A stretch of 64,000 bases of DNA, taken from a virus (lineage: Duplodnaviria; Heunggongvirae; Uroviricota; Caudoviricetes). Numbering within the stretch: position 1 is the stretch's first letter; the number at the start of each line of letters is the position of its first letter. The DNA is taken from the IMG/VR virus record IMGVR_UViG_3300021475_000005, one strand, 5' to 3'. The notes under the pieces were generated by a model. It did not search any database and was not told the origin of the DNA. It saw only the letters and a program-made list of their open reading frames with translations. This document shows, piece by piece, positions 4,086 through 55,500 of the stretch. A program made the translations under genes and the position numbers.

Positions 4086-4520
4086 ATGAGGAACCTTGGA
4101 ATTTGTGCTCTTCTGATCGCCGTGCTAGCAATCCTGACGTTCGCTCCAGCACATGCCGATGACTTGGCACCCGGTACTTATCCGGGCCAACCGAATTATT
4201 ATGATGCGGTGCCGGGACAAATTTCGGTGCCCCTCACAGCGCGGCTCAAATTGATTCGTTCTCTACGGAACTATATTTCATCTCTCACAGGAACGGACGA
4301 TATCCTCATGGAATCGGCGATCATCTGGAAGCGCGCCAGCGGAGGAGAAGAAGGTCTCGTGGTTTGCGGTAATTCCAGCGTCAATGGGCAAGATAAATAC
4401 TGGGCAGCTTCTGCGGGCGATGACGGTGCTCGGCTGCATTTTATTCAATCGGAGGATGACTTCGAAGCCTCGGGTTGCAAAACGCCCAATGGAACCGTTC
4501 TTTTCGATCTCGACAGTTAG
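4086..4520 (+). CDS. exported protein with signal peptide, inserted against the tail operon
   Basis: AGGAGG RBS; hydrophobic N-terminus ending in A-H-A; two Cys in the mature part. Confidence 0.7.
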   Translation: MRNLGICALLIAVLAILTFAPAHADDLAPGTYPGQPNYYDAVPGQISVPLTARLKLIRSLRNYISSLTGTDDILMESAIIWKRASGGEEGLVVCGNSSVNGQDKYWAASAGDDGARLHFIQSEDDFEASGCKTPNGTVLFDLDS

Positions 4521-5466: not shown

Positions 5467-5840
5467 TACCGCGAAGTTCTCACTTGGCAAACGATGACGG
5501 CTGCGGCTGGATCAGAAAGCCGACGTACGATTTCCCATGTACGCCCAGTTTCATCCAGAACAATATCGGCGGACTTTGGTGCTACAGGCAGATCGAGCGC
5601 CGGAATGAGCAGCTTCGAGTCAGTCAGGACTGAAACGTTCGCATCGATCTCGCTTTCCTTAAAACGGGCAAAGACAGCGCGTGGCAGCGTATAGTTGACG
5701 GAGACTGGCACAACAGTTCCAGCTTCGATGTCGCGTGTGACTGCTCCAGTCAGAGACATGTAAGTGACTGTCTGGACAAGATCACCGAGTGTGATGAACG
5801 CCTGAAGAGCGGCAAGTTGAACTGTATTGCGTAAGCCCAT
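5466..5840 (-). CDS. head closure (stopper) protein
   Basis: 124 aa, beta-rich, between adaptor and neck genes. Confidence 0.6.
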   Translation of the reverse strand: MGLRNTVQLAALQAFITLGDLVQTVTYMSLTGAVTRDIEAGTVVPVSVNYTLPRAVFARFKESEIDANVSVLTDSKLLIPALDLPVAPKSADIVLDETGRTWEIVRRLSDPAAAVIVCQVRTSR

Positions 5841-7200: not shown

Positions 7201-7523
7201 TTAGTTCCCCGAAGGTCTCTGGTTATGAGGGCTCCTGAAGAATCTGATTTACCCTCTTGAGACCTGCGTTGAGATTAGAGAGGGATTTGGTCAGTGCCAC
7301 CACGCTGGTAGCATTCAGTGCACCCGAAAGTAATGTCATGAAATCATCTGCCTCGATTTGCAGAGATGTTTGGATTTCCTCAAGAACTGTTTCGTTTGAA
7401 AGCGTTTCTTTTAGTGCAGCGTTTTGAACCACAACTAGCCCTTTCTCTTCTCTGCCCCGAGAAAGAACTTTTCATGTCCGACGACTGCGAGCAAGAGGCT
7501 TTGCCTCCGCGCACAAAATAAAT

Positions 7524-7868: not shown

Positions 7869-8044
7869 TCGCGCGGGGATGAATCAATCTGGTCGGGTCC
7901 AGAGTTCGACACATACTTATGCCCCCGGCGCAAGTATTGTTTCGTTCGCGCAAGTTACTTTAGAGAGGGAATGAAGTCAAGAATTCCCCATTGATACAGT
8001 AAGTTGCATGGTTAATAGGAGGATTGGAACTGTGTGTCAAGGGC

Positions 8045-8083
8045 AAAATAAAAGCCCCATGGGGAGGAAACCCACGGGGCTTT
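8045..8083 (-). terminator. intrinsic terminator downstream of tRNA operon 1
   Basis: AAAGCCCCGUGG...CCAUGGGGCUUUUAUUUU. Confidence 0.8.
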
Positions 8084-8226: not shown

Positions 8227-8304
8227 TGGACTCGCTACCGAGGCTCGAACTCGGATCGTGAAGACTTCGGAGGTCAACGTTCTATCCATTTGAACTATAG
8301 CGAG
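8227..8304 (-). tRNA. tRNA-Arg(CCG)
   Basis: Cloverleaf; loop CUCCGAA; encoded CCA. Confidence 0.85.
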
Positions 8305-8308
8305 AAGG

Positions 8309-8383
8309 TGGCAGTCCCAGACGGATTCGAACCGCCGACCATTCGTTTAGAAGACGAAGGCTCTTCCGCTGAGCTATGGGACT
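8309..8383 (-). tRNA. tRNA-Arg(UCU)
   Basis: Canonical cloverleaf; loop CUUCUAA; CCA. Confidence 0.95.
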
Positions 8384-8395
8384 ATGCACATTAAG

Positions 8396-8484
8396 TGGCA
8401 CTGACGGCGAGATTCGAACTCGCAATGTGGTTTCCCACTCCAGATTCGTAGTCTGGTGCCTTGATCCAGTTAGACTACGTCAGT
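8396..8484 (-). tRNA. tRNA-Arg(ACG) with long variable arm
   Basis: Loop CUACGAA; extra arm GUGG-GAAA-CCAC; CCA. Confidence 0.9.
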
Positions 8485-8521
8485 GTATTATGTATACGGA
8501 TAATCCGTACACTGATTAAAA

Positions 8522-8598
8522 TGGCTCCTGTTGCAAGGCTCGAACTTGCCGCGATCTGATTAACAGTCAGATGTCCACACCCGGTGCACTTAACAGGA
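8522..8598 (-). tRNA. tRNA-Asn(GUU)
   Basis: Loop CUGUUAA; CCA. Confidence 0.9.
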
Positions 8599-8629
8599 AT
8601 AGTGAGATGACATATCTCACAGATTGATT

Positions 8630-8704
8630 TGGATCAAGGAGTAGGATTCGAACCCACGTTGCCGACGTTCAATGCGTCGTGTCCTACCGCTAGACGATCC
8701 TTGA
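8630..8704 (-). tRNA. tRNA-Gln(UUG), A33 variant
   Basis: Loop CAUUGAA; U1-A72; CCA. Confidence 0.85.
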
Positions 8705-8709
8705 AAATT

Positions 8710-8785
8710 TGGCTCACCCTCTTCGATTCGAACGAAGAGCCTCCAGATTCAGAGTCTGTTGCGCTACCAGTTGCGCCAAGGGTGA
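8710..8785 (-). tRNA. tRNA-Gln(CUG)
   Basis: Loop CUCUGAA; CCA. Confidence 0.92.
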
Positions 8786-8786
8786 A

Positions 8787-8861
8787 TGGTAGTTCCTCGG
8801 AGAATCGAACTCCGCTAAATCTCCGTGTAAAGGAGGCGACCAGCCACTGGCCCAAGGAACT
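8787..8861 (-). tRNA. tRNA-Val(UAC)
   Basis: Loop UUUACAC; CCA. Confidence 0.88.
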
Positions 8862-8895
8862 AAACTTTTTTACTCCTTTCGAGTAAACGTTGATT

Positions 8896-8970
8896 TGGTT
8901 GTCCCTGATGGAGTTGAACCATCTACCTAACGGTTATCAGCCGTTTGCTCTACCGATGAGCTAAGAGACA
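8896..8970 (-). tRNA. tRNA-Ile(GAU)
   Basis: Loop CUGAUAA; CCA. Confidence 0.93.
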
Positions 8971-8975
8971 TCATT

Positions 8976-9050
8976 TGGTTGGCCTACCGAGAATCGAACT
9001 CGGGCATAAACGCTCATCAGGCGCTTGCTGTACCACTTAGCTATAGGCCG
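8976..9050 (-). tRNA. tRNA-Ile(GAU), G37 variant
   Basis: Loop CUGAUGA; CCA. Confidence 0.85.
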
Positions 9051-9055
9051 AAATT

Positions 9056-9130
9056 TGGTATCTCTTACTGGAATCGAACCAGTTCATCACGGCATGTCAT
9101 ACCGGTGCTCTCCCACTGAGCTAAAGAGAT
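9056..9130 (-). tRNA. tRNA-Val(GAC)
   Basis: Loop AUGACAU; CCA. Confidence 0.88.
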
Positions 9131-9131
9131 A

Positions 9132-9206
9132 TGGTCGATCTGGATGGTCTCGCACCACCGACACGAAGATTTTCAGTCTCCTGCTCTACTCCTGAGCTAC
9201 AGATCG
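9132..9206 (-). tRNA. tRNA-Phe(GAA)
   Basis: Loop CUGAAAA; CCA. Confidence 0.9.
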
Positions 9207-9299
9207 ATATTCGTTACTTCTCATCTCCATAATTCGCCGTTTCTGGCGAGTTAACGTCTGTTTCGTTTGTAACTCGTCGTCTTTGACGAGTTCTGCTTT

Positions 9300-9385
9300 T
9301 GGTGGGAGTGGAAGGAATTGCACCTACTCACCCGTGGGGACTGATTTTACAGACCAGCGCCGCTCTCTAACTCGACCGCACTCCC
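9300..9385 (-). tRNA. tRNA-Tyr(GUA)
   Basis: Loop CUGUAAA; variable arm; CCA. Confidence 0.9.
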
Positions 9386-9398
9386 ATGGTCCAAATGC

Positions 9399-9434
9399 AA
9401 AAAGGCCCGCTCGGTGTTTACCGGGCGGGCCTTT
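9399..9434 (-). terminator. attenuator terminator (3:4 hairpin) in front of tRNA operon 1
   Basis: AAAGGCCCGCCCGGU-AAAC-ACCGAGCGGGCCUUUUU, ending 13 nt before tRNA-Tyr. Confidence 0.9.
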
Positions 9435-9457
9435 CGGAACCTTGAGAGCGACTGGGT

Positions 9458-9547
9458 TTACCAGATATCCTGCTCACGCGCCGAAGACCCGCCCGGAATA
9501 TACCGGACGAAGTTGACTTGCTGCACGCGGTTGAATCTCTTGCTCAT
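9458..9547 (-). CDS. leader peptide 1, MSKRFNRVQQVNFVRYIPGGSSAREQDIW (29 aa)
   Basis: ATG 6 nt after the -10 element (leaderless); codons 4-17 all read by downstream tRNAs; codons 18-23 form the antiterminator strand. Confidence 0.85.
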   Translation of the reverse strand: MSKRFNRVQQVNFVRYIPGGSSAREQDIW

Positions 9548-9553
9548 GATGTT

Positions 9554-9582
9554 TGTGTACCTGATTCGATTTTGAATGTCAA
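9554..9582 (-). promoter_or_regulatory. sigma70-type promoter of tRNA operon 1
   Basis: TTGACA-17 nt-TACACA; the same -35/-10 pair precedes the TROVE gene. Confidence 0.7.
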
Positions 9583-9848
9583 GGATACCCAATATGGGGT
9601 GGTGAGTCAGTTTGACTGACTTGACATTCCCAAAACTTGTCGGGAGGGCTAGGAAAGGCCAGAGGCTTTTCATCTGGGCTGTAGCAATCCCAGAACAGCG
9701 CTACTCCTGCGCTCCGGCCTATCATAGCCCTCCCGACCTCGGCTTGCGCCGGACGCGGATGCCACGCGATCTGGGGAGGCTAGGGGATTCGACAGGTGCG
9801 GTCAAGGATCGCGACTTTCGCGTATCTCAGGTACGGGAAAGTCGTAAA

Positions 9849-9938
9849 TGGCGGAGAGTTGGCGAACCCGAGTCCCATACCCGTAAAGGTACACAAGGTT
9901 TAGCAAACCTGTCCCATCACCTGATGAGTTAACTCTCC
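9849..9938 (-). tRNA. tRNA-Ser(GCU), 8/4 fold
   Basis: 8-bp acceptor GGAGAGUU/AACUCUCC; 6-bp D stem; loop UUGCUAA; variable arm; GCCA. Confidence 0.8.
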
Positions 9939-9943
9939 TAATC

Positions 9944-10033
9944 TGGCGGAGCGCACTGAAGTTGCGTCAGAGGCCTTTGCAGGCTCGCGATGCTTTCCAA
10001 GCAGGCCGGGCGCGCTCGTCCCGTTTACGCTCC
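9944..10033 (-). tRNA. tRNA-Ser(GGA), 8/4 fold
   Basis: 8-bp acceptor; 4-bp T stem CUGA/UCAG; loop UUGGAAA. Confidence 0.8.
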
Positions 10034-10103
10034 AATTTTGCGCGAGATGCCACGACGCATCCCTTTCAACCATTCCGGCACGTTGGCCTGCGCTGGTCTT
10101 GAC

Positions 10104-10193
10104 TGGAGGAAGGCGGGTGCTGCTGCCGCCCAAGCCGGTTAGGGCTCCATCCGTTTTCAAAACGGAGTCTAACACTGGTTAGATTCACCTTCC
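10104..10193 (-). tRNA. tRNA-Ser(UGA), 8/4 fold
   Basis: 8-bp acceptor; D stem UCUAAC/GUUAGA; loop UUUGAAA. Confidence 0.8.
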
Positions 10194-10198
10194 GTAAT

Positions 10199-10289
10199 TG
10201 GCAGAGAGCGACGGGGATGCTCCGCAAACTTCTCTCGAAGTTCGATCCGCTTTCGAAACGGTCGCCGTACCTCGACGGCTTCACTCTCT
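10199..10289 (-). tRNA. tRNA-Ser(CGA), 8/4 fold
   Basis: 8-bp acceptor; T stem GCGG/CCGU; loop UUCGAAA. Confidence 0.8.
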
Positions 10290-10296
10290 GTAAAAA

Positions 10297-10372
10297 TGGT
10301 GGACCTTGCCGGACTTGAACCGACCACCCGCTGCTTGCAAAGCAGCCGCTCTCCCAGATGAGCTAAAGGCCC
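10297..10372 (-). tRNA. tRNA-Ala(UGC)
   Basis: G3:U70; loop UUUGCAA; CCA. Confidence 0.93.
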
Positions 10373-10378
10373 GTAGCT

Positions 10379-10450
10379 TGGTGGAGTAAATGGGAGTCGC
10401 GCCCATCGCAATCGGTTTGCAAGACCAATCTCCGCCCTCGCGGTTACCCC
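10379..10450 (-). tRNA. tRNA-Ala(UGC), compact D arm
   Basis: G3:U70; loop CUUGCAA; CCA. Confidence 0.8.
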
Positions 10451-10454
10451 GAAC

Positions 10455-10530
10455 TGGAACTGCGTGTCCGATTTGCACGGACCTCCTCCGCCTTCACAGG
10501 GCGGCGACTCGCTTGCTAGTCCTACGCAGC
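10455..10530 (-). tRNA. tRNA-His(GUG)
   Basis: Loop CUGUGAA; CCA. Confidence 0.85.
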
Positions 10531-10538
10531 ATTTAATT

Positions 10539-10622
10539 TGGTCGCTCTACCAGAACTTGCATCTGGAATCCCGAAGGACAACGTTCTCAACGTTGCGCGT
10601 CTACTAGTTTCGCCATAGAGCG
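10539..10622 (-). tRNA. tRNA-Leu(GAG)
   Basis: Loop UUGAGAA; variable arm; ACCA. Confidence 0.9.
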
Positions 10623-10631
10623 TTATTTTAG

Positions 10632-10714
10632 TGGTGCCTCAACCCAGACTCGAACTGGGACGCTTTCGCACTGGGATTTGAAGCCAGCGTGTCTACCATT
10701 TCCACCATGGAGGC
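10632..10714 (-). tRNA. tRNA-Leu(CAA)
   Basis: Loop UUCAAAU; variable arm; ACCA. Confidence 0.9.
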
Positions 10715-10726
10715 ATATTCGTTATT

Positions 10727-10809
10727 TGGTGCCCAACGTCGGGGTCGAACCGACACCTCAATGAGAACGGGATTTAAAGCCGTCGCGTCTGCCATTCCGC
10801 CAGATGGGC
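10727..10809 (-). tRNA. tRNA-Leu(UAA)
   Basis: Loop UUUAAAU; variable arm; ACCA. Confidence 0.9.
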
Positions 10810-10850
10810 ATTATAAACTTGTGATCGAGTAGTACGATTCACTTGTAAGT

Positions 10851-10934
10851 TGGTAGCCCTAGAGGGACTTGCACCCCCACGTCTTTCGACATTGGTTCCT
10901 AAGACCAACGCGGCTTCTATTACGCCATAGGGCC
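10851..10934 (-). tRNA. tRNA-Leu(UAG)
   Basis: Loop CUUAGGA; variable arm; ACCA. Confidence 0.9.
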
Positions 10935-10939
10935 AAACT

Positions 10940-11027
10940 TGGAGGACTCGGAGAGAATTGCACTCTCGGTGGCAGTTACGCTAGTGGATTAAGAATCCAC
11001 GCCCATCGCTTCTCGGGTCACGAGTCC
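10940..11027 (-). tRNA. tRNA-Lys(CUU) with long variable region
   Basis: Loop UUCUUAA; ~16-nt variable region; UCCA. Confidence 0.85.
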
Positions 11028-11045
11028 AAATTATTCAGTATACTG

Positions 11046-11130
11046 AGGATCGGGTGAGATTTGCACTCACGATGGCATTTCTGCGTGGGTTTAAAAGACC
11101 CGTGACTTCGACTACTCTGTCCACCGATCC
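11046..11130 (-). tRNA. tRNA-Lys(UUU) with long variable arm, CCA not encoded
   Basis: Loop CUUUUAA; arm GCA-GAAA-UGC. Confidence 0.8.
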
Positions 11131-11145
11131 ATCTCAGTATAAAAT

Positions 11146-11221
11146 TGGTTCCGCTTATCTGACTTGCACAGATCATCTCTCGTTTACGAGACGAGCGCAT
11201 CGCTACCAATGCTTAAGCGGA
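11146..11221 (-). tRNA. tRNA-Thr(CGU)
   Basis: Loop CUCGUAA; CCA. Confidence 0.88.
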
Positions 11222-11226
11222 TCAAC

Positions 11227-11301
11227 TGGTGCCTCTTGAACGACCTGCCCGTTCCTCTCACCCCTACCAAAGGTGCTCATCGCTTTCTATGATTAAAAGG
11301 C
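11227..11301 (-). tRNA. tRNA-Thr(GGU), divergent T loop
   Basis: Loop UUGGUAG; T arm GAACG-GGCAGGU-CGUUC; CCA. Confidence 0.75.
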
Positions 11302-11302
11302 G

Positions 11303-11378
11303 TGGTGCCGATAGACAGGATCGAACTGCCTCCCTGACTGATTACAAAACAGTTGCGCTCCACTAGCGCCATATCGGC
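11303..11378 (-). tRNA. tRNA-Thr(UGU)
   Basis: Loop UUUGUAA; CCA. Confidence 0.9.
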
Positions 11379-11467
11379 AAAAAACAATTGCATGATTCGG
11401 GTAGTCTCGCCTTCTTCGCGTCCCGATAGTTTCAGCCATCACCGGCTTACGGAGATCATGCACAAAA

Positions 11468-11555
11468 TGGTCAGAGTGGTGTGATTCGAACACACGATGC
11501 CTTTCGGCTCCTGCTCCCAAAGCAGGCGGAATGAGCCAGCCTATCCGACACTCTG
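11468..11555 (-). tRNA. tRNA-Pro(UGG) with long variable arm
   Basis: Loop UUUGGGA; arm GCC-GAAA-GGC; C1-G72; ACCA. Confidence 0.88.
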
Positions 11556-11602
11556 ATAATTCTAATATCATCATAGCGAATCTCCGCTTACGATGATTGA
11601 AT

Positions 11603-11678
11603 TGGTCTGCCTATCAGGATTTGAACCTGAATCACCAGCTTCCGAGGCCGGGGCTCTACCAAGTTAAGCTATAGACAG
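11603..11678 (-). tRNA. tRNA-Pro(CGG)
   Basis: Loop CUCGGAA; C1-G72; ACCA. Confidence 0.9.
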
Positions 11679-11767
11679 TCGTTCTTCGTCTCCTGTTGGA
11701 GCCGGACCTGTTTCTGGAGCGGGGATCAGAAGGTTTGGTCGCGACTCGTGTTAGCCGCGAGAGGGAC

Positions 11768-11881
11768 TTAGTCCCGTAAGCGGCTTGAGAGTGGTGCGGT
11801 CGCTGGCGTTGTCAGCACGAGCGAATGCAAACTGGCGGAGGCCAGTTTGGGGCTCGACTTGAGTGACAACGTTGCGAACAT
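11768..11881 (-). CDS. leader peptide 2, MFATLSLKSSPKLASASLHSLVLTTPATAPLSSRLRD (37 aa)
   Basis: AAAGG RBS; 30 of residues 3-33 are P/T/K/L/H/A/S, the amino acids of the downstream 18 tRNAs. Confidence 0.85.
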   Translation of the reverse strand: MFATLSLKSSPKLASASLHSLVLTTPATAPLSSRLRD

Positions 11882-11921
11882 TTTCAAACCTTTAAGTGGC
11901 GCGAGTCGCGCCGGAAGTCTT

Positions 11922-11950
11922 TGTGTCTCATATCCAGACTCGTATGTCAA
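11922..11950 (-). promoter_or_regulatory. promoter of tRNA operon 2
   Basis: TTGACA-17 nt-GACACA with GAGTC in the spacer. Confidence 0.65.
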
Positions 11951-12099
11951 CAAAGAAATTTCAAAATCCACTTTCCGGTTTCGCCGGGTTGCCGCGATTA
12001 ACAAAAGGACGCCCGCTTTTGCAGGCGTCGTGTCGCTTTCTTTATGGCAATGCATCCGAATTCCCGGATGAGCGGCTCATATGAGTAAAGGAGATCAAA

Positions 12100-40054: not shown

Positions 40055-40101
40055 TGTGACCTTCTCTCATAACCGACTCGTGATGTCAAGGACGAATTTG
40101 C

Positions 40102-52537: not shown

Positions 52538-55500
52538 GTGATTCCTATTATGCCTTCGGCAAAGAAAAGGGGCAGCGACCTTAGCCGCTGCCAGTTGCCA
52601 TAAGGAGATCGGCTTCAGACATAAAATAAGCCGACGAAGCTGTGTCTCATGGTTCTAGGATGGTGTCAAGAATTCCAGAATCACCTGTCGGAGGCTTCGA
52701 CAGACCCTTGACAAGGCTGAGGAATTAGGCGTAGAGTTCGTCATCTGTGTGGTTCCAAAGTCGGTTTAACGAACAAAGGAGGCGCTCTCGGCAGGATAAC
52801 AAACCCCATACCCACCTTATAGAAACCTTTTGTCGTATATTGGATAGCGCCGTCCGAGTGACTCTCGGGCGGCGCTTTGTTTTGGAATCGTTGACGAGAT
52901 GGGACAGTGTGTCAGGATCGAGCTTTCAACTTAAAGGATTCGGATGAGGCATTCTGCCGATACGACACGCAGCCCTATAGAGATCATTGAAGGAGCCGCT
53001 ACGCTGGTGTTGCTGGCTCACCGTTTAGATATCGTCAATGCCATGTCGAAGACATCCGTGACCATTTCAAAGGCTGATGCGGCTGCGCTGGCGCGTTGTA
53101 TGCGTTATGCTGGTACTATTATAGATGAATTAGTTTTAACCGTTGAAGCGCTTGTGATGCCGAAGCTCGACGAACATAGTAATGAGATCAAATCCAAATA
53201 GTCAGTATACGGATCATTTTCCCTAAAAATTGTGAATCAATTTTTCAGGTATAGGCCTATTTTTAGATCGATCATGTTTTCTACCGGTTCCCCGTCCTCT
53301 TTTTTTTTTTTAATCTGTGCACTGATTAATTTTCAATTCAATCCGCACACGTCGGATGGTGCCGCGCGAAAAATGGTTAACGAGGAGGGCCTTGGGTCCC
53401 ATCCCCGTTAACAATTCTTAAACAATGCCAAAGAGCATCGCCGCAAGGCTCAAAAGCAATCCAATGCCCGCACCCCCGGCCAGTAGGGACGCATGAGCCT
53501 TAATAAAGTGCGGGCGCGTCGCGGCGTGCGCTTGGCGTATCGCTTGCGCGCGCAGCACGTTTGCGTTGCGCTCGATCATTGCGGCGGCTCTTTTGTCATT
53601 GACTACGATGTAGGACATAATCGACTCCGTTGTTTGTTTGTGATGTGAATATGAGCATATCAACGTAACGAAGTCAAGTCACATTCTCGAATTAAAATGT
53701 GACTCTTAGCAGATAGTAAACAAACAGTTCACAACTACAAAACAAAAAGGCCGCGCGATTGCGCGGCCTTTGTTTCATGCGAGACGTAACGACTATGCGC
53801 GCCCGAGCGTGCGCCCTATCGCATACAGGCGACGATTAGCCTTCGTGTAATAGCACTCGGAGTAGTCATACAACGCTTGCGCAAACGCTTTCAGCATCAT
53901 GTCGCCGCGCATCTCGGATGCGTCAACGGTTTCCACGATGCTGGCAAGCAACGCGCGCAGGTCGCGCCTTACAGCCTCGGTGGGTACGGCTATCCAACGT
54001 TCAGCTTTTTTGTACGCCAAGTCCGCGAGGTAAAGCGCGTGTTTGTCCACAATGCAGCCTTGCTCAACGGCTTGACCGATGAAGGTGAGAATGAGCGCGC
54101 TATGATTTGCAACGCTTTGGCGAGTGTGGCGAGCAATAGACATATTCGACTCCTTTGGTTGCGCCGCTTGCTTGCGGCTATGCGTAAACCTTAAAGCCAA
54201 ACGACAAAGCGAGTCAAGCGCAAAGAGTCACAATATCATATGATATTGTGACTCTTTGCTTCGTAGTTAATGAATAGTTACCACGCGCTAACGTGTGGCA
54301 ATGCCAACGTCTTGGCATGATGACCGTGATTGCCGGTCGCGTGACCGCGTGCATAAGCGGGGGAGATTGCGAGCATTCCGGAGAGGATGTAAGCGATTGC
54401 ATATTTCATGGTGATGACTCCTTCAGTTGTGGGCTCGCGCCCGTTGGGGTTAGGCTGCTTCGGATTGCTCAATGCGTTGCGCCCATGTGAGGCGTACGCT
54501 TTGCGGCGGTGCGGCGTCGGCGGGATGTGCATATATGACTTGCCCGTTGCCGTGCCGCACGAAAACCGCCTCTTGATCGAAAGCGCGGCAAGCATCGGCG
54601 GCAATCGATTCCAGCCTATCGGCTAAAGTCTTTTCCCGCTTGGGCGACAGGCGCATATCCCAGTCCGCTAGGATCGTGAAGCGGATGGCAATATCGTTAT
54701 ACACGACTTCGTGATTCTTCCATTTGCCACGCTCGGTTTCTTCCGAGAAACATTCCGCGCCGAATTGATTCATGAGGACGCGGCGAAAGTTGGTAAGTTC
54801 ACATGCCAGAGATTCGCCCGCGTTATTCTTTGTCGGGAGAATCACGATTGCTTGACTTTGCATTTTCGACTCCTGCTATCGCTGCATCATTGCAACGTGA
54901 TAAGAGCCTAAGCGCGTTATTCGGAAAAGTCGAGTCACATTTTGAACGAAAAATGTGACTCTTAAATTCGTGCTTAATATTAGGTAAATCGCGTTTTTTC
55001 GTTTGACAACTAACGCAAGCCATGCTCTAAGGTAGTCACAAACAAAAACGGAGTCGATCATGTCTAAGATGAAATTTCGCGAATTAGGTAGGTGCATATG
55101 GCTTGCAGGTCGTTTTAAAAACGATGTGAAAGCTGAAGGCAACGCATCCGACTGGTTTTTCTGGAATAGCAACCTATAGGAGTCAATCATGTGCACTCTC
55201 AAAACGGCGACATGTGAATGCGGACGTTGCAAAGAATTCCGTTTCGTTCAGTTAGTAAAACACGGGAATCGTATATCACCTCCGCTTTATGGCGTTCATA
55301 TCCTGCGCGACGGCGCTTGGACACTATGGGCCGCATATGGTTCACGCCTCACCGCTGAAACCGAAAAGACTTACCTTGTGGACATGCTCGGACTGACTGC
55401 CGAAATTTTCGTGAAGCACGTCTAACGCTGAATCTAGCTATAGGAGTCGATCATGTCTAACCCTATCCCGTATCGTTTTTATTTGACGCCGCAAGGGAAG

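What the first reader, a model, noticed from the sequence alone, without database searches (positions are those of the whole stretch)
9849..11950. Second codon-matched leader in front of the 18-tRNA operon, without an intrinsic terminator
SEEN: promoter TTGACA-17-GACACA (11950-11922), AAAGG RBS and the 37-codon ORF MFATLSLKSSPKLASASLHSLVLTTPATAPLSSRLRD (11881-11768). The operon carries only Pro, Thr, Lys, Leu, His, Ala and Ser tRNAs. 30 of residues 3-33 belong to that set and all seven amino acids occur. Codons are spread over isoacceptors (TCA/TCG/TCC/AGC/AGT, TTG/CTC/CTG/TTA, ACG/ACA/ACC, AAG/AAA, CCA/CCC, CAT, GCA/GCC/GCG): 16 of 17 distinct anticodons have a cognate codon and only Pro-CGG lacks CCG. 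The stop codon is the loop of GCCGC..GGGAC-UAA-GUCCC..GCGGC. The 5'UTR CGCGACUCG is complementary to CGAGUCGCG after the stop. The 89-nt spacer to tRNA-Pro is C-rich with no hairpin-plus-U-tract. INFERENCE: an independent instance of the same sensing logic with a different output, possibly Rho-dependent termination (as in mgtL/tnaC-type leaders) or processing control. Two unrelated leader sequences each matching their own operon make chance very unlikely.
Basis: partly seen in the sequence, partly recalled or inferred. Interest (0 to 1): 0.92.

Follow-up and report, generated by a model that had tools for sequence, protein, structure and literature searches.

The report
Leader-peptide sensor gating phage tRNA operon
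A 37-codon mini-gene in front of a giant soil phage's Pro-to-Ser tRNA operon is spelled almost only in the seven amino acids whose tRNAs follow. It is conserved in that form in nine related phages, including Caulobacter phage Karma, so it looks like a ribosome-read sensor of tRNA supply, but in this phage the usual terminator behind it is missing.

Summary
The window is a 156-kb IMG/VR phage record.

**Composition of the ORF**
- The ORF at 11881-11768 is the only stop-free 31-codon window among 312,540 six-frame positions of the record with at least 28 residues in {P,T,K,L,H,A,S}.
- Base composition does not explain this: 0 of 20,000 dinucleotide shuffles reach the observed share.
- Homologous leaders stand before tRNA-Pro in nine relatives, including cultured Caulobacter and Brevundimonas phages, where they are annotated as hypothetical proteins.
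- Their sequences have diverged, yet 341 of 380 residues stay in the set.

**Terminator**
- Four relatives have a canonical intrinsic terminator after the ORF.
- This phage and its two nearest relatives keep the hairpin chain but have no U tract.

**Reading**
- I read it as a leader-peptide attenuator of a tRNA operon.
- Here the stop signal is most likely factor-dependent (Rho). This part is inferred only.

**Limits**
- Isoacceptor-level codon matching is no better than chance.
- One claimed tRNA (Ser-GGA) was not confirmed.

This scan has noted the same kind of element before on other phage DNA. I found no publication describing it.

The parts
12008..12029 (-). Hairpin plus T tract upstream of the leader promoter. 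It is a likely terminator that insulates the leader from upstream minus-strand transcription.
   Evidence: Terminator-like site (9 pairs, 7 GC, tail CTTTTGTT).
11922..11950 (-). Promoter: -35 TTGACA, a 17-nt spacer ending TG-A (extended -10), and -10 GACACA.
   Evidence: Sequence. The motif TTGAC-N15-18-TGAGA occurs 4 times in the window, all on the minus strand, against 0.67 expected. The same layout is found upstream of the homologous leaders.
11898..11912 (-). 5' UTR hairpin GGCGCG-ACT-CGCGCC.
   Evidence: A hairpin stands at the same place with a different sequence in G001, and one is also present in L043, L047, L048 and Karma.
11885..11893 (-). Shine-Dalgarno region AAAGG, 7 nt before the ATG. 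The stretch 11892-11885 is complementary to 11737-11730.
   Evidence: duplex -10.0 kcal/mol, P = 0.038 against shuffles.
11768..11881 (-). Leader ORF C: 37 codons plus TAA, with 31 of 36 residues after Met in {P,T,K,L,H,A,S}.
   Evidence: Homologs are in L016, L043, L047, L048, L052-L056.
11832..11845 (-). Hairpin inside the ORF, CTGGC-CTCC-GCCAG.
   Evidence: Seen in the sequence and in all folds. G001 keeps it, and L043 has GTTGC/GCAAC at the same place.
11753..11785 (-). Two-tier hairpin H1 around the stop codon: outer AGCCGC/GCGGCT, inner GGGAC-TAA-GTCCC.
   Evidence: The outer stem is conserved in G001 and L043. An inner stem with the stop in its loop recurs with a different sequence in L047.
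11741..11758 (-). Alternative hairpin H2, GCGGCT-AACACG-AGTCGC, which shares its 5' arm with H1.
   Evidence: Consensus helix of RNAalifold on the three close relatives.
11705..11740 (-). C-rich, G-poor spacer core (15 C, 5 G). It holds the anti-SD-like CAAACCTT (11737-11730) and is a candidate Rho loading site.
   Evidence: The counts were made by eye on the sequence.
11687..11704 (-). Short hairpin CGGCTCC-AACA-GGAGACG followed by GAAGAACG (no U tract). It is homologous to the terminator stem of CcrKarma. Its 5' arm can also pair with GAGTCG at 11747-11742.
9850..11678 (-). tRNA operon: Pro x2, Thr x3, Lys x2, Leu x4, His, Ala x2, Ser x3, plus one unconfirmed element.
   Evidence: A contig from an RNA library bridges 10712-11902.

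Best explanation
The element is the sensor half of a ribosome-mediated (leader-peptide) attenuator that gates transcription of the phage's Pro-Thr-Lys-Leu-His-Ala-Ser tRNA operon.

**Proposed working**
1. A phage promoter starts an RNA with a 5' hairpin, a Shine-Dalgarno site and a 37-codon ORF built almost entirely from the seven amino acids served by the downstream tRNAs.
2. The speed of the first ribosome through these codons reports the supply of those aminoacyl-tRNAs.
3. The ribosome's position then decides which of a chain of mutually exclusive hairpins forms. These are H1 around the stop codon, H2, a GAGTCG:CGGCTC pairing, and the last short hairpin.
4. In relatives the last hairpin is a canonical intrinsic terminator. 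In this phage and its two closest relatives it has no U tract.
5. The stop signal here is therefore most likely factor-dependent: Rho loading on the C-rich spacer or on the naked C-rich ORF RNA.
6. Slow decoding would give read-through and more tRNA. Fast decoding would give termination.

**Shown:** the ORF, its frame-specific composition, its conservation, the hairpins and the missing U tract.

**Inferred:** translation, the direction of control and the role of Rho.
For: **Composition**
- It is the only 31-codon window with at least 28 in-set residues among 312,540 six-frame positions.
- 0 of 20,000 dinucleotide shuffles reach the observed share in any of six homologs tested in the correct frame. 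The other two frames are 35-57% in set and mostly carry stops.

**Conservation**
- Ten homologs have 341 of 380 residues in the set.
- 76% of differing aligned positions stay in the set, against 44% expected from random nonsynonymous single-base changes.
- In an unbiased six-frame scan, the leader site is the top-ranked window in 8 of 9 related loci.

**The second leader**
- Leader A, in front of the other operon, matches that operon's set {R,N,Q,V,I,F,Y}.
- It is the top-ranked window in 10 of 10 loci and carries a canonical terminator.

**Terminator in relatives**
- A canonical terminator follows leader C in L048, CcrKarma, Bajun and Kikimora.
- The Karma stem is homologous to the hairpin at 11704-11687.

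**This phage's clade**
- H2 and the last hairpin are the consensus fold of the three close relatives.
- No T run longer than 2 occurs in the spacers of G000, G001 and L043.
- The spacer has C 32 against G 21.

**Other support**
- The promoter motif is over-represented in the window.
- A contig from an RNA library bridges the leader ORF, the spacer and the following tRNAs at 10712-11902.
- Leader residues anticipated tRNAs that are missing from the CcrKarma record (Thr and Ala).
Against: - No experiment or ribosome data show that the ORF is translated.
- No terminator of any kind is demonstrated between 11767 and 11679.
- The C-rich spacer is also present in relatives that do have intrinsic terminators, so it is not a specific replacement for one.
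- Equilibrium folds with a masked ribosome footprint did not show a clean switch.
- The RNA-library contig runs straight through the spacer. That fits read-through but would also fit an unregulated leader.
- Codon choice among synonyms is no better matched to the anticodons than chance.
- The covariation evidence rests on three alignable sequences.
Confidence: 0.5

Rival explanations
1. The family and the sensor ORF are the same, but in this clade the attenuator has lost its stop signal. Transcription reads through constitutively. The ORF persists because the loss is recent or because it serves some other role, for example keeping a ribosome on the nascent RNA.
For: There is no U tract in G000, G001 and L043, and the last stem is shortened compared with Karma. 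An RNA-library contig is continuous from the leader into the tRNAs.
Against: The three terminator-less phages have diverged from one another (tail tube 62% and PhoH 65% identical to G000). Their leaders still show 32 in-set changes against 9 in/out changes, and L043 keeps 34 in-set residues in a row. The last hairpin and H2 are conserved nearly base for base while the ORF has drifted.
Confidence: 0.2
2. The output is a hairpin-dependent pause or a weak intrinsic termination without a U tract at 11704-11687, with no factor involved.
For: The hairpin is conserved and is homologous to a true terminator stem.
Against: The stem has only 4+2 pairs around a mismatch and is followed by an A-rich tail. 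Leader A in the same phage uses a canonical U tract, so the host polymerase is served by ordinary terminators.
Confidence: 0.1
3. The leader controls RNA processing or stability rather than transcription, for example access of RNase E or RNase P to the 5' side of the first tRNA.
For: The hairpin ends 8 nt before tRNA-Pro. SD:anti-SD pairing is nominally significant in G000 and L043.
Against: This would affect at most the first tRNA of about 17. Relatives clearly use transcription termination at the same place.
Confidence: 0.1
4. The ORF encodes a small Ser/Ala/Leu/Thr/Pro-rich protein with its own function, or is a chance open frame in C-rich RNA. The match to the tRNA set would then be coincidental.
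For: Such low-complexity composition is common. The RNA is C-rich (38% C). GenBank records annotate the homologs only as hypothetical proteins.
Against: Shuffles that keep the dinucleotide content never reach the observed share. The sequence is not conserved but the set membership is. A second, unrelated leader matches a different and chemically arbitrary set. The ORF always lies between a promoter and the tRNAs.
Confidence: 0.05

Closest known systems
Multivalent leader-peptide attenuators of enterobacterial amino-acid operons (thr leader, ilvGMEDA leader; also trpL, hisL, leuL). Named from my own knowledge.
   Same: A promoter-proximal short ORF enriched in codons for several amino acids, a chain of mutually exclusive hairpins, and a ribosome position that sets the transcriptional outcome. 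Relatives of this phage also have the GC hairpin plus U tract.
   Different: The controlled genes are tRNAs, not biosynthetic enzymes. Seven amino acids are sampled over about 30 codons. The element is viral. This particular copy has no intrinsic terminator.
pheST leader (pheM) attenuator, which controls phenylalanyl-tRNA synthetase. Named from my own knowledge.
   Same: Leader-peptide attenuation is used to adjust the supply side of translation in response to decoding of cognate codons.
   Different: It regulates a synthetase and senses one amino acid. It has an intrinsic terminator.
Leader-ORF-controlled Rho-dependent attenuation: tnaC-tnaA, mgtL-mgtA and corL-corA, named from my own knowledge. 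For mgtCBR, only the abstract of PMC3641672 was seen. It describes two leader ORFs and an attenuation-like control through stem-loops.
   Same: A short translated leader, alternative stem-loops, no canonical terminator, and C-rich RNA downstream of the ORF.
   Different: Rho dependence is not tested here. Those leaders sense Trp, Pro, Mg or ATP, not a panel of seven amino acids, and they control protein genes.
Homologous leaders in cultured Dolichocephalovirinae: CcrKarma gp083, Bajun BAJUN_02440 and CcrBL9 gp149.
   Same: Same position before tRNA-Pro, same residue set, a promoter of the same TTGAC(A/G) type in Karma and Bajun, and for Karma a homologous last hairpin.
   Different: Karma, Bajun and Kikimora have a strong hairpin followed by a T run, annotated in Karma as a rho-independent terminator. 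The ORFs carry no functional annotation. The phiCbK genome paper does not mention leaders or attenuation (PMC3556154).
T-box riboswitches.
   Same: They sense the state of a specific tRNA and control read-through of a leader.
   Different: There is no T-box or other Rfam match in the region. Sensing here would go through a translating ribosome, not through direct tRNA binding.

Membership tests
Ribosome-mediated leader-peptide attenuator (classical, with intrinsic terminator) | Short ORF with a start codon and Shine-Dalgarno site directly behind a promoter and ahead of the regulated genes | tested here: met
   The feature is conserved in nine relatives.
Ribosome-mediated leader-peptide attenuator (classical, with intrinsic terminator) | Regulatory codons enriched beyond chance for the amino acids linked to the regulated genes | tested here: met
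   The match is at the amino-acid level only. Isoacceptor-level matching is not significant.
Ribosome-mediated leader-peptide attenuator (classical, with intrinsic terminator) | Mutually exclusive hairpins, with the ORF end overlapping the first one | tested here: inconclusive
   H1 against H2, and GAGTCG:CGGCTC against the last hairpin, share arms. Masked-ribosome folds gave no clean switch, and only three sequences can be aligned.
Ribosome-mediated leader-peptide attenuator (classical, with intrinsic terminator) | GC-rich hairpin followed by a U tract before the first regulated gene | tested here: not met
   No such site lies in 11767-11679. The feature is met in L048, Karma, Bajun and Kikimora.
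Rho-dependent leader-ORF attenuator (tnaC / mgtL / corL type) | No intrinsic terminator, with a C-rich, G-poor stretch of little structure downstream of the leader ORF | tested here: inconclusive
   The spacer has C 32 and G 21 over 89 nt, and its core has 15 C and 5 G. The same bias is present in relatives that do have terminators.
Rho-dependent leader-ORF attenuator (tnaC / mgtL / corL type) | Termination abolished by bicyclomycin or by rho/nusG mutations | not testable with these tools
   Needs an experiment.
T-box riboswitch | Match to the T-box covariance model (specifier loop and T-box sequence) | tested here: not met
   Rfam scans with permissive E-values found only tRNA and chance-level hits.

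The most novel reading that the evidence does not exclude
Giant siphophages of the phiCbK lineage and their soil relatives run a demand-sensing tRNA supply. Each tRNA operon is gated by its own leader peptide, spelled in the amino acids of that operon's tRNAs, so a tRNA block is transcribed when ribosomes decode those codons slowly. This could happen, for example, after host tRNA loss or cleavage. In this phage's clade, the Pro-to-Ser gate has exchanged its intrinsic terminator for a Rho-dependent stop. That would make it the first leader-peptide, Rho-coupled attenuator of tRNA genes.
Probability: 0.3. Interest if true: 0.9.

Novelty: new variant of a known kind. Interest (0 to 1): 0.8.

Why it matters
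Why phages carry tRNAs is still debated. Recent work ties phage tRNAs to escape from host defences that deplete tRNA (PMC10264068 and PMC11555353; abstracts seen).

A leader peptide that reads the supply of exactly the tRNAs encoded behind it would have several consequences:
- Phage tRNA genes would be regulated on demand, not simply expressed.
- It would extend leader-peptide attenuation, a textbook mechanism for amino-acid operons, to tRNA genes.
- It would give a seven-amino-acid sensor.

Homologs exist in Caulobacter phages that grow on a model host, so the idea can be tested directly. The terminator-less copy studied here offers a natural comparison of output mechanisms within one family. 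The leaders also point to tRNA genes that annotation pipelines miss.

Tried and rejected
**Searches for relatives that gave little**
- Searching viral contigs with PhoH found no relative.
- Loci found with the neighbouring DUF6527 gene held no tRNAs.
- The leader start motif found only G001 again in viral contigs.
- A metagenome scan with the same motif found G001's contig again, plus 23 chance matches.
- blastn against cultured phages matched only single tRNAs.

**Tests that did not help**
- Minimum-free-energy folds with a masked ribosome footprint did not separate the states.
- ARAGORN at very low thresholds did not call the four hand-folded tRNA-like elements.
- SD:anti-SD pairing is nominally significant only in G000 and L043, out of ten phages.
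It is not kept as such in L043 (6 bp only), it is not used in the folds, and I give it no weight.
- Isoacceptor coverage is no better than chance.

**RNA libraries**
- In run X2 no contig covers 11932-12100 or a few other bins.
- Run X3 holds only two read-length pieces.
- Missing cover in contigs is not evidence, so I draw no transcription start or end from it.

**Other points**
- The in-frame extension up to the ATG at 12055 (95 codons) runs through the promoter. It is not conserved in G001, so I rejected it as the real start.
- Literature searches for leader peptides or attenuation in front of tRNA genes found nothing relevant. The library does not hold all journals.
Full report
**What the window is.** The window is part of a 156-kb IMG/VR virus record with a CheckV completeness of 59%. 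All 27 tRNAs that ARAGORN calls in the record lie in this window, on the minus strand, in four groups. The proteins around them are those of a large siphophage: PhoH, a tail tube protein and a tape measure protein. The PhoH protein is 47-55% identical to that of phiCbK-like Caulobacter and Brevundimonas phages of the Dolichocephalovirinae.

**The observation.**
- -35 TTGACA at 11950-11945, a 17-nt spacer ending TG-A, and -10 GACACA at 11927-11922.
- A 5' UTR hairpin at 11912-11898.
- AAAGG seven bases before the ATG at 11881.
- A 37-codon frame ending at TAA 11770-11768.
- The stop codon sitting in the loop of an inner stem inside an outer stem (11785-11753).
- An exact 9-nt complementarity between 11910-11902 and 11748-11740.
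- An 89-nt spacer (C 32, G 21, T 12) before tRNA-Pro(CGG) at 11678.

Two independent scans find no hairpin followed by a T-rich tail in that spacer, and its longest T run is 2. A hairpin with a T tract does stand upstream of the promoter at 12029-12008.

The promoter belongs to a motif class, TTGAC-N15-18-TGAGA, that occurs four times in the window. All four are on the minus strand, against 0.67 expected, and none of 100 shuffles reached four.

**The tRNA inventory is only partly reproducible.**
- ARAGORN gives 11 tRNAs between 11678 and 10297 at default settings, and Lys-CUU, a second Ala-UGC and Ser-CGA at relaxed settings.
- Thr-GGU, Ser-UGA and Ser-GCU are cloverleaf-like folds with encoded CCA ends. 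They sit where relatives have ARAGORN-called tRNAs. ARAGORN does not call them even at very low thresholds.
- I could not confirm the claimed Ser-GGA.
- Everything that is called belongs to the seven amino acids.

**Is the match more than chance?**
- Over all six frames of the record (312,540 codon positions), the leader is the only stop-free 31-codon window with at least 28 residues in {P,T,K,L,H,A,S}. It is also the only run of 19.
- The RNA is C-rich, and that alone raises the expected share to 0.56-0.62. Even so, none of 20,000 dinucleotide-preserving shuffles of the ORF reaches the observed 0.86. The other two frames are 46-47% in set.
- The claim that codons are spread to sample each isoacceptor does not add evidence. 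Resampling synonymous codons with the phage's own usage covers 16 or more of the 17 anticodons in 52% of trials.
- The signal therefore lies in which amino acids are used, not in which synonymous codons.

**Relatives.**
- A complete 225.6-kb phage (G001; tail tube 62% identical) has the same four tRNA groups.
- It also has a homologous leader with the same start region, a 31-codon frame, and a stop where this phage has a Ser codon. The last six codons here are therefore a recent extension.
- PhoH homologs led to three further uncultured phages with the array and leader C: L043, L047 and L048.
- The cultured phages CcrKarma, CcrColossus, CcrBL9, Bajun and Kikimora share the array and the leader.
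- In Karma, BL9 and Bajun the frame is annotated as a hypothetical protein (gp083, gp149, BAJUN_02440).
- Across the ten leaders the sequences are hard to align, yet 341 of 380 residues after the start are in the set. Of the aligned positions that differ, 76% stay in the set, against 44% expected from random nonsynonymous single-base changes.
- In a blind six-frame scan of each 16-29 kb locus, the richest 25-codon window for this set is the leader site in 8 of the 9 loci that contain it, and third in the ninth.
- The same scan for {R,N,Q,V,I,F,Y} picks the leader in front of the other operon in 10 of 10 loci.
- That second leader (9547-9458 here) is followed by a textbook terminator in every phage.
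- Two unrelated leaders, each tracking its own operon across a phage family, rule out chance. They also make an unrelated small protein unlikely.
- Residues in Karma's leaders that seemed to lack a tRNA are explained by tRNAs missing from the record. ARAGORN at -ps90 adds Thr, Ala, Ser, Asn and Arg, and a Tyr-like cloverleaf is visible at about L053:9440-9525.
- BL9's leader contains Trp, and its operon ends with tRNA-Trp.

**The missing terminator.**
- After leader C, L048, Karma, Bajun and Kikimora have a strong GC hairpin (-18 to -21 kcal/mol) followed by a run of four or five T.
- L047 has a hairpin with a U/C-rich tail. Colossus and BL9 are doubtful.
- This phage, G001 and L043 have nothing of the kind.
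- The short hairpin at 11704-11687 shares its core with the Karma terminator stem. Here the lower stem is reduced and the tail is GAAGAACG.
- The three terminator-less phages conserve this hairpin and its loop almost base for base. They also conserve a second hairpin, H2, that shares an arm with the stop-codon hairpin H1. RNAalifold returns exactly H2 plus the last hairpin as their consensus.
- By eye, GAGTCG (11747-11742) can instead pair with CGGCTC (11704-11699), as the corresponding segments can in G001 and L043.
- The skeleton of a multi-hairpin attenuator is therefore kept, and only the U tract is gone.
- Within this clade the ORF has kept changing while staying in the set: 32 in-set changes against 9 in/out changes, and 34 in-set residues in a row in L043. 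This argues that the leader still does something.

**Mechanism.**
- Shown: the promoter motif, the conserved frame-specific composition, the hairpins, the absence of a U tract, and homology to terminator-bearing leaders.
- Inferred: the ORF is translated; slow decoding favours read-through, as the layout of leader A implies; and the stop signal here is Rho.
- Points in favour of Rho are the lack of an intrinsic terminator, C-rich G-poor RNA in both the ORF and the spacer, and precedent in other leader-ORF systems (my own knowledge).
- The same C bias exists in relatives with terminators, so it is weak evidence.
- An anti-SD-like CAAACCTT in the spacer can pair with the leader's SD region. This is nominally significant here and in L043, with one compensating change between them, but not in the other eight phages.
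- Equilibrium folding with masked footprints was uninformative.

**Expression.** A soil metatranscriptome library holds a 1,191-nt contig, identical to the window from 10712 to 11902. It bridges the 5' UTR, the ORF, the spacer and the following tRNAs. This shows that the leader and the tRNAs occur joined in an RNA library. By the tool's own caveats it does not prove a single transcript and does not give ends or levels.

**Known or new.** Full-text searches found no description of leader-peptide control of tRNA genes. The phiCbK genome paper lists the tRNAs and predicted terminators but never mentions leaders or attenuation (PMC3556154). Earlier notes of this same scan describe the same kind of element in other giant phages, including a Caulobacter phage. 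I treat those notes as leads, not as evidence, although my own loci reproduce the pattern.

**Verdict.** This is a real, conserved leader-peptide sensor in front of a phage tRNA operon. It is a new variant of a known mechanism, with an unresolved and probably factor-dependent output in this phage.

Noticed in passing
L053 (CcrKarma JX100811): 7249-7324, 7985-8055, 8244-8330, 10130-10204, 10231-10313, and about 9440-9525: ARAGORN at a slightly relaxed threshold calls Thr, Ala, Ser, Asn and Arg tRNAs that are not annotated in the record. A Tyr-like cloverleaf with a GTA anticodon loop and a CCA end is visible before tRNA-Phe. The 2012 genome paper states that Thr and Tyr tRNAs are absent from these phages.
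   Followed up: partly
window 9547-9400 (minus strand): Leader A is a 29-codon ORF whose codons 4-17 are all in {R,N,Q,V,I,F,Y}. It is followed by a canonical terminator before tRNA-Tyr. Its segment CCGGGCGGG is complementary to the 5' arm of the terminator. Homologs were found in ten related loci.
   Followed up: partly
window 40065-40089 and 52645-52669 (minus strand): Two more copies of the promoter motif TTGACA-N14-ATGAGA that heads leaders C and B. I did not look at what they drive.
   Followed up: no
window 11467-11379 (minus strand): An 89-nt branched, tRNA-like fold without a recognisable anticodon loop or CCA end lies between tRNA-Pro(UGG) and tRNA-Thr(UGU). It ends in a run of six T.
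   Followed up: no
window 8227-11678 (minus strand): Many tRNAs of the array encode their CCA end, have unusual T loops (for example TGCAAGT) and long variable arms on Pro, Lys and Arg. Several score below the Rfam tRNA threshold or are missed by ARAGORN.
   Followed up: partly
L055 (CcrBL9 MH588546): 4153-4272 and 5750-5826: BL9's leader C contains a Trp codon, and its Pro-to-Ser operon ends with a tRNA-Trp. This is a possible case of leader content tracking operon content.
   Followed up: no
window 14209-14020 (minus strand): The ORF behind the promoter in front of the Glu/Asp tRNAs carries only three Glu/Asp codons, so no clear composition match is visible there.
   Followed up: no
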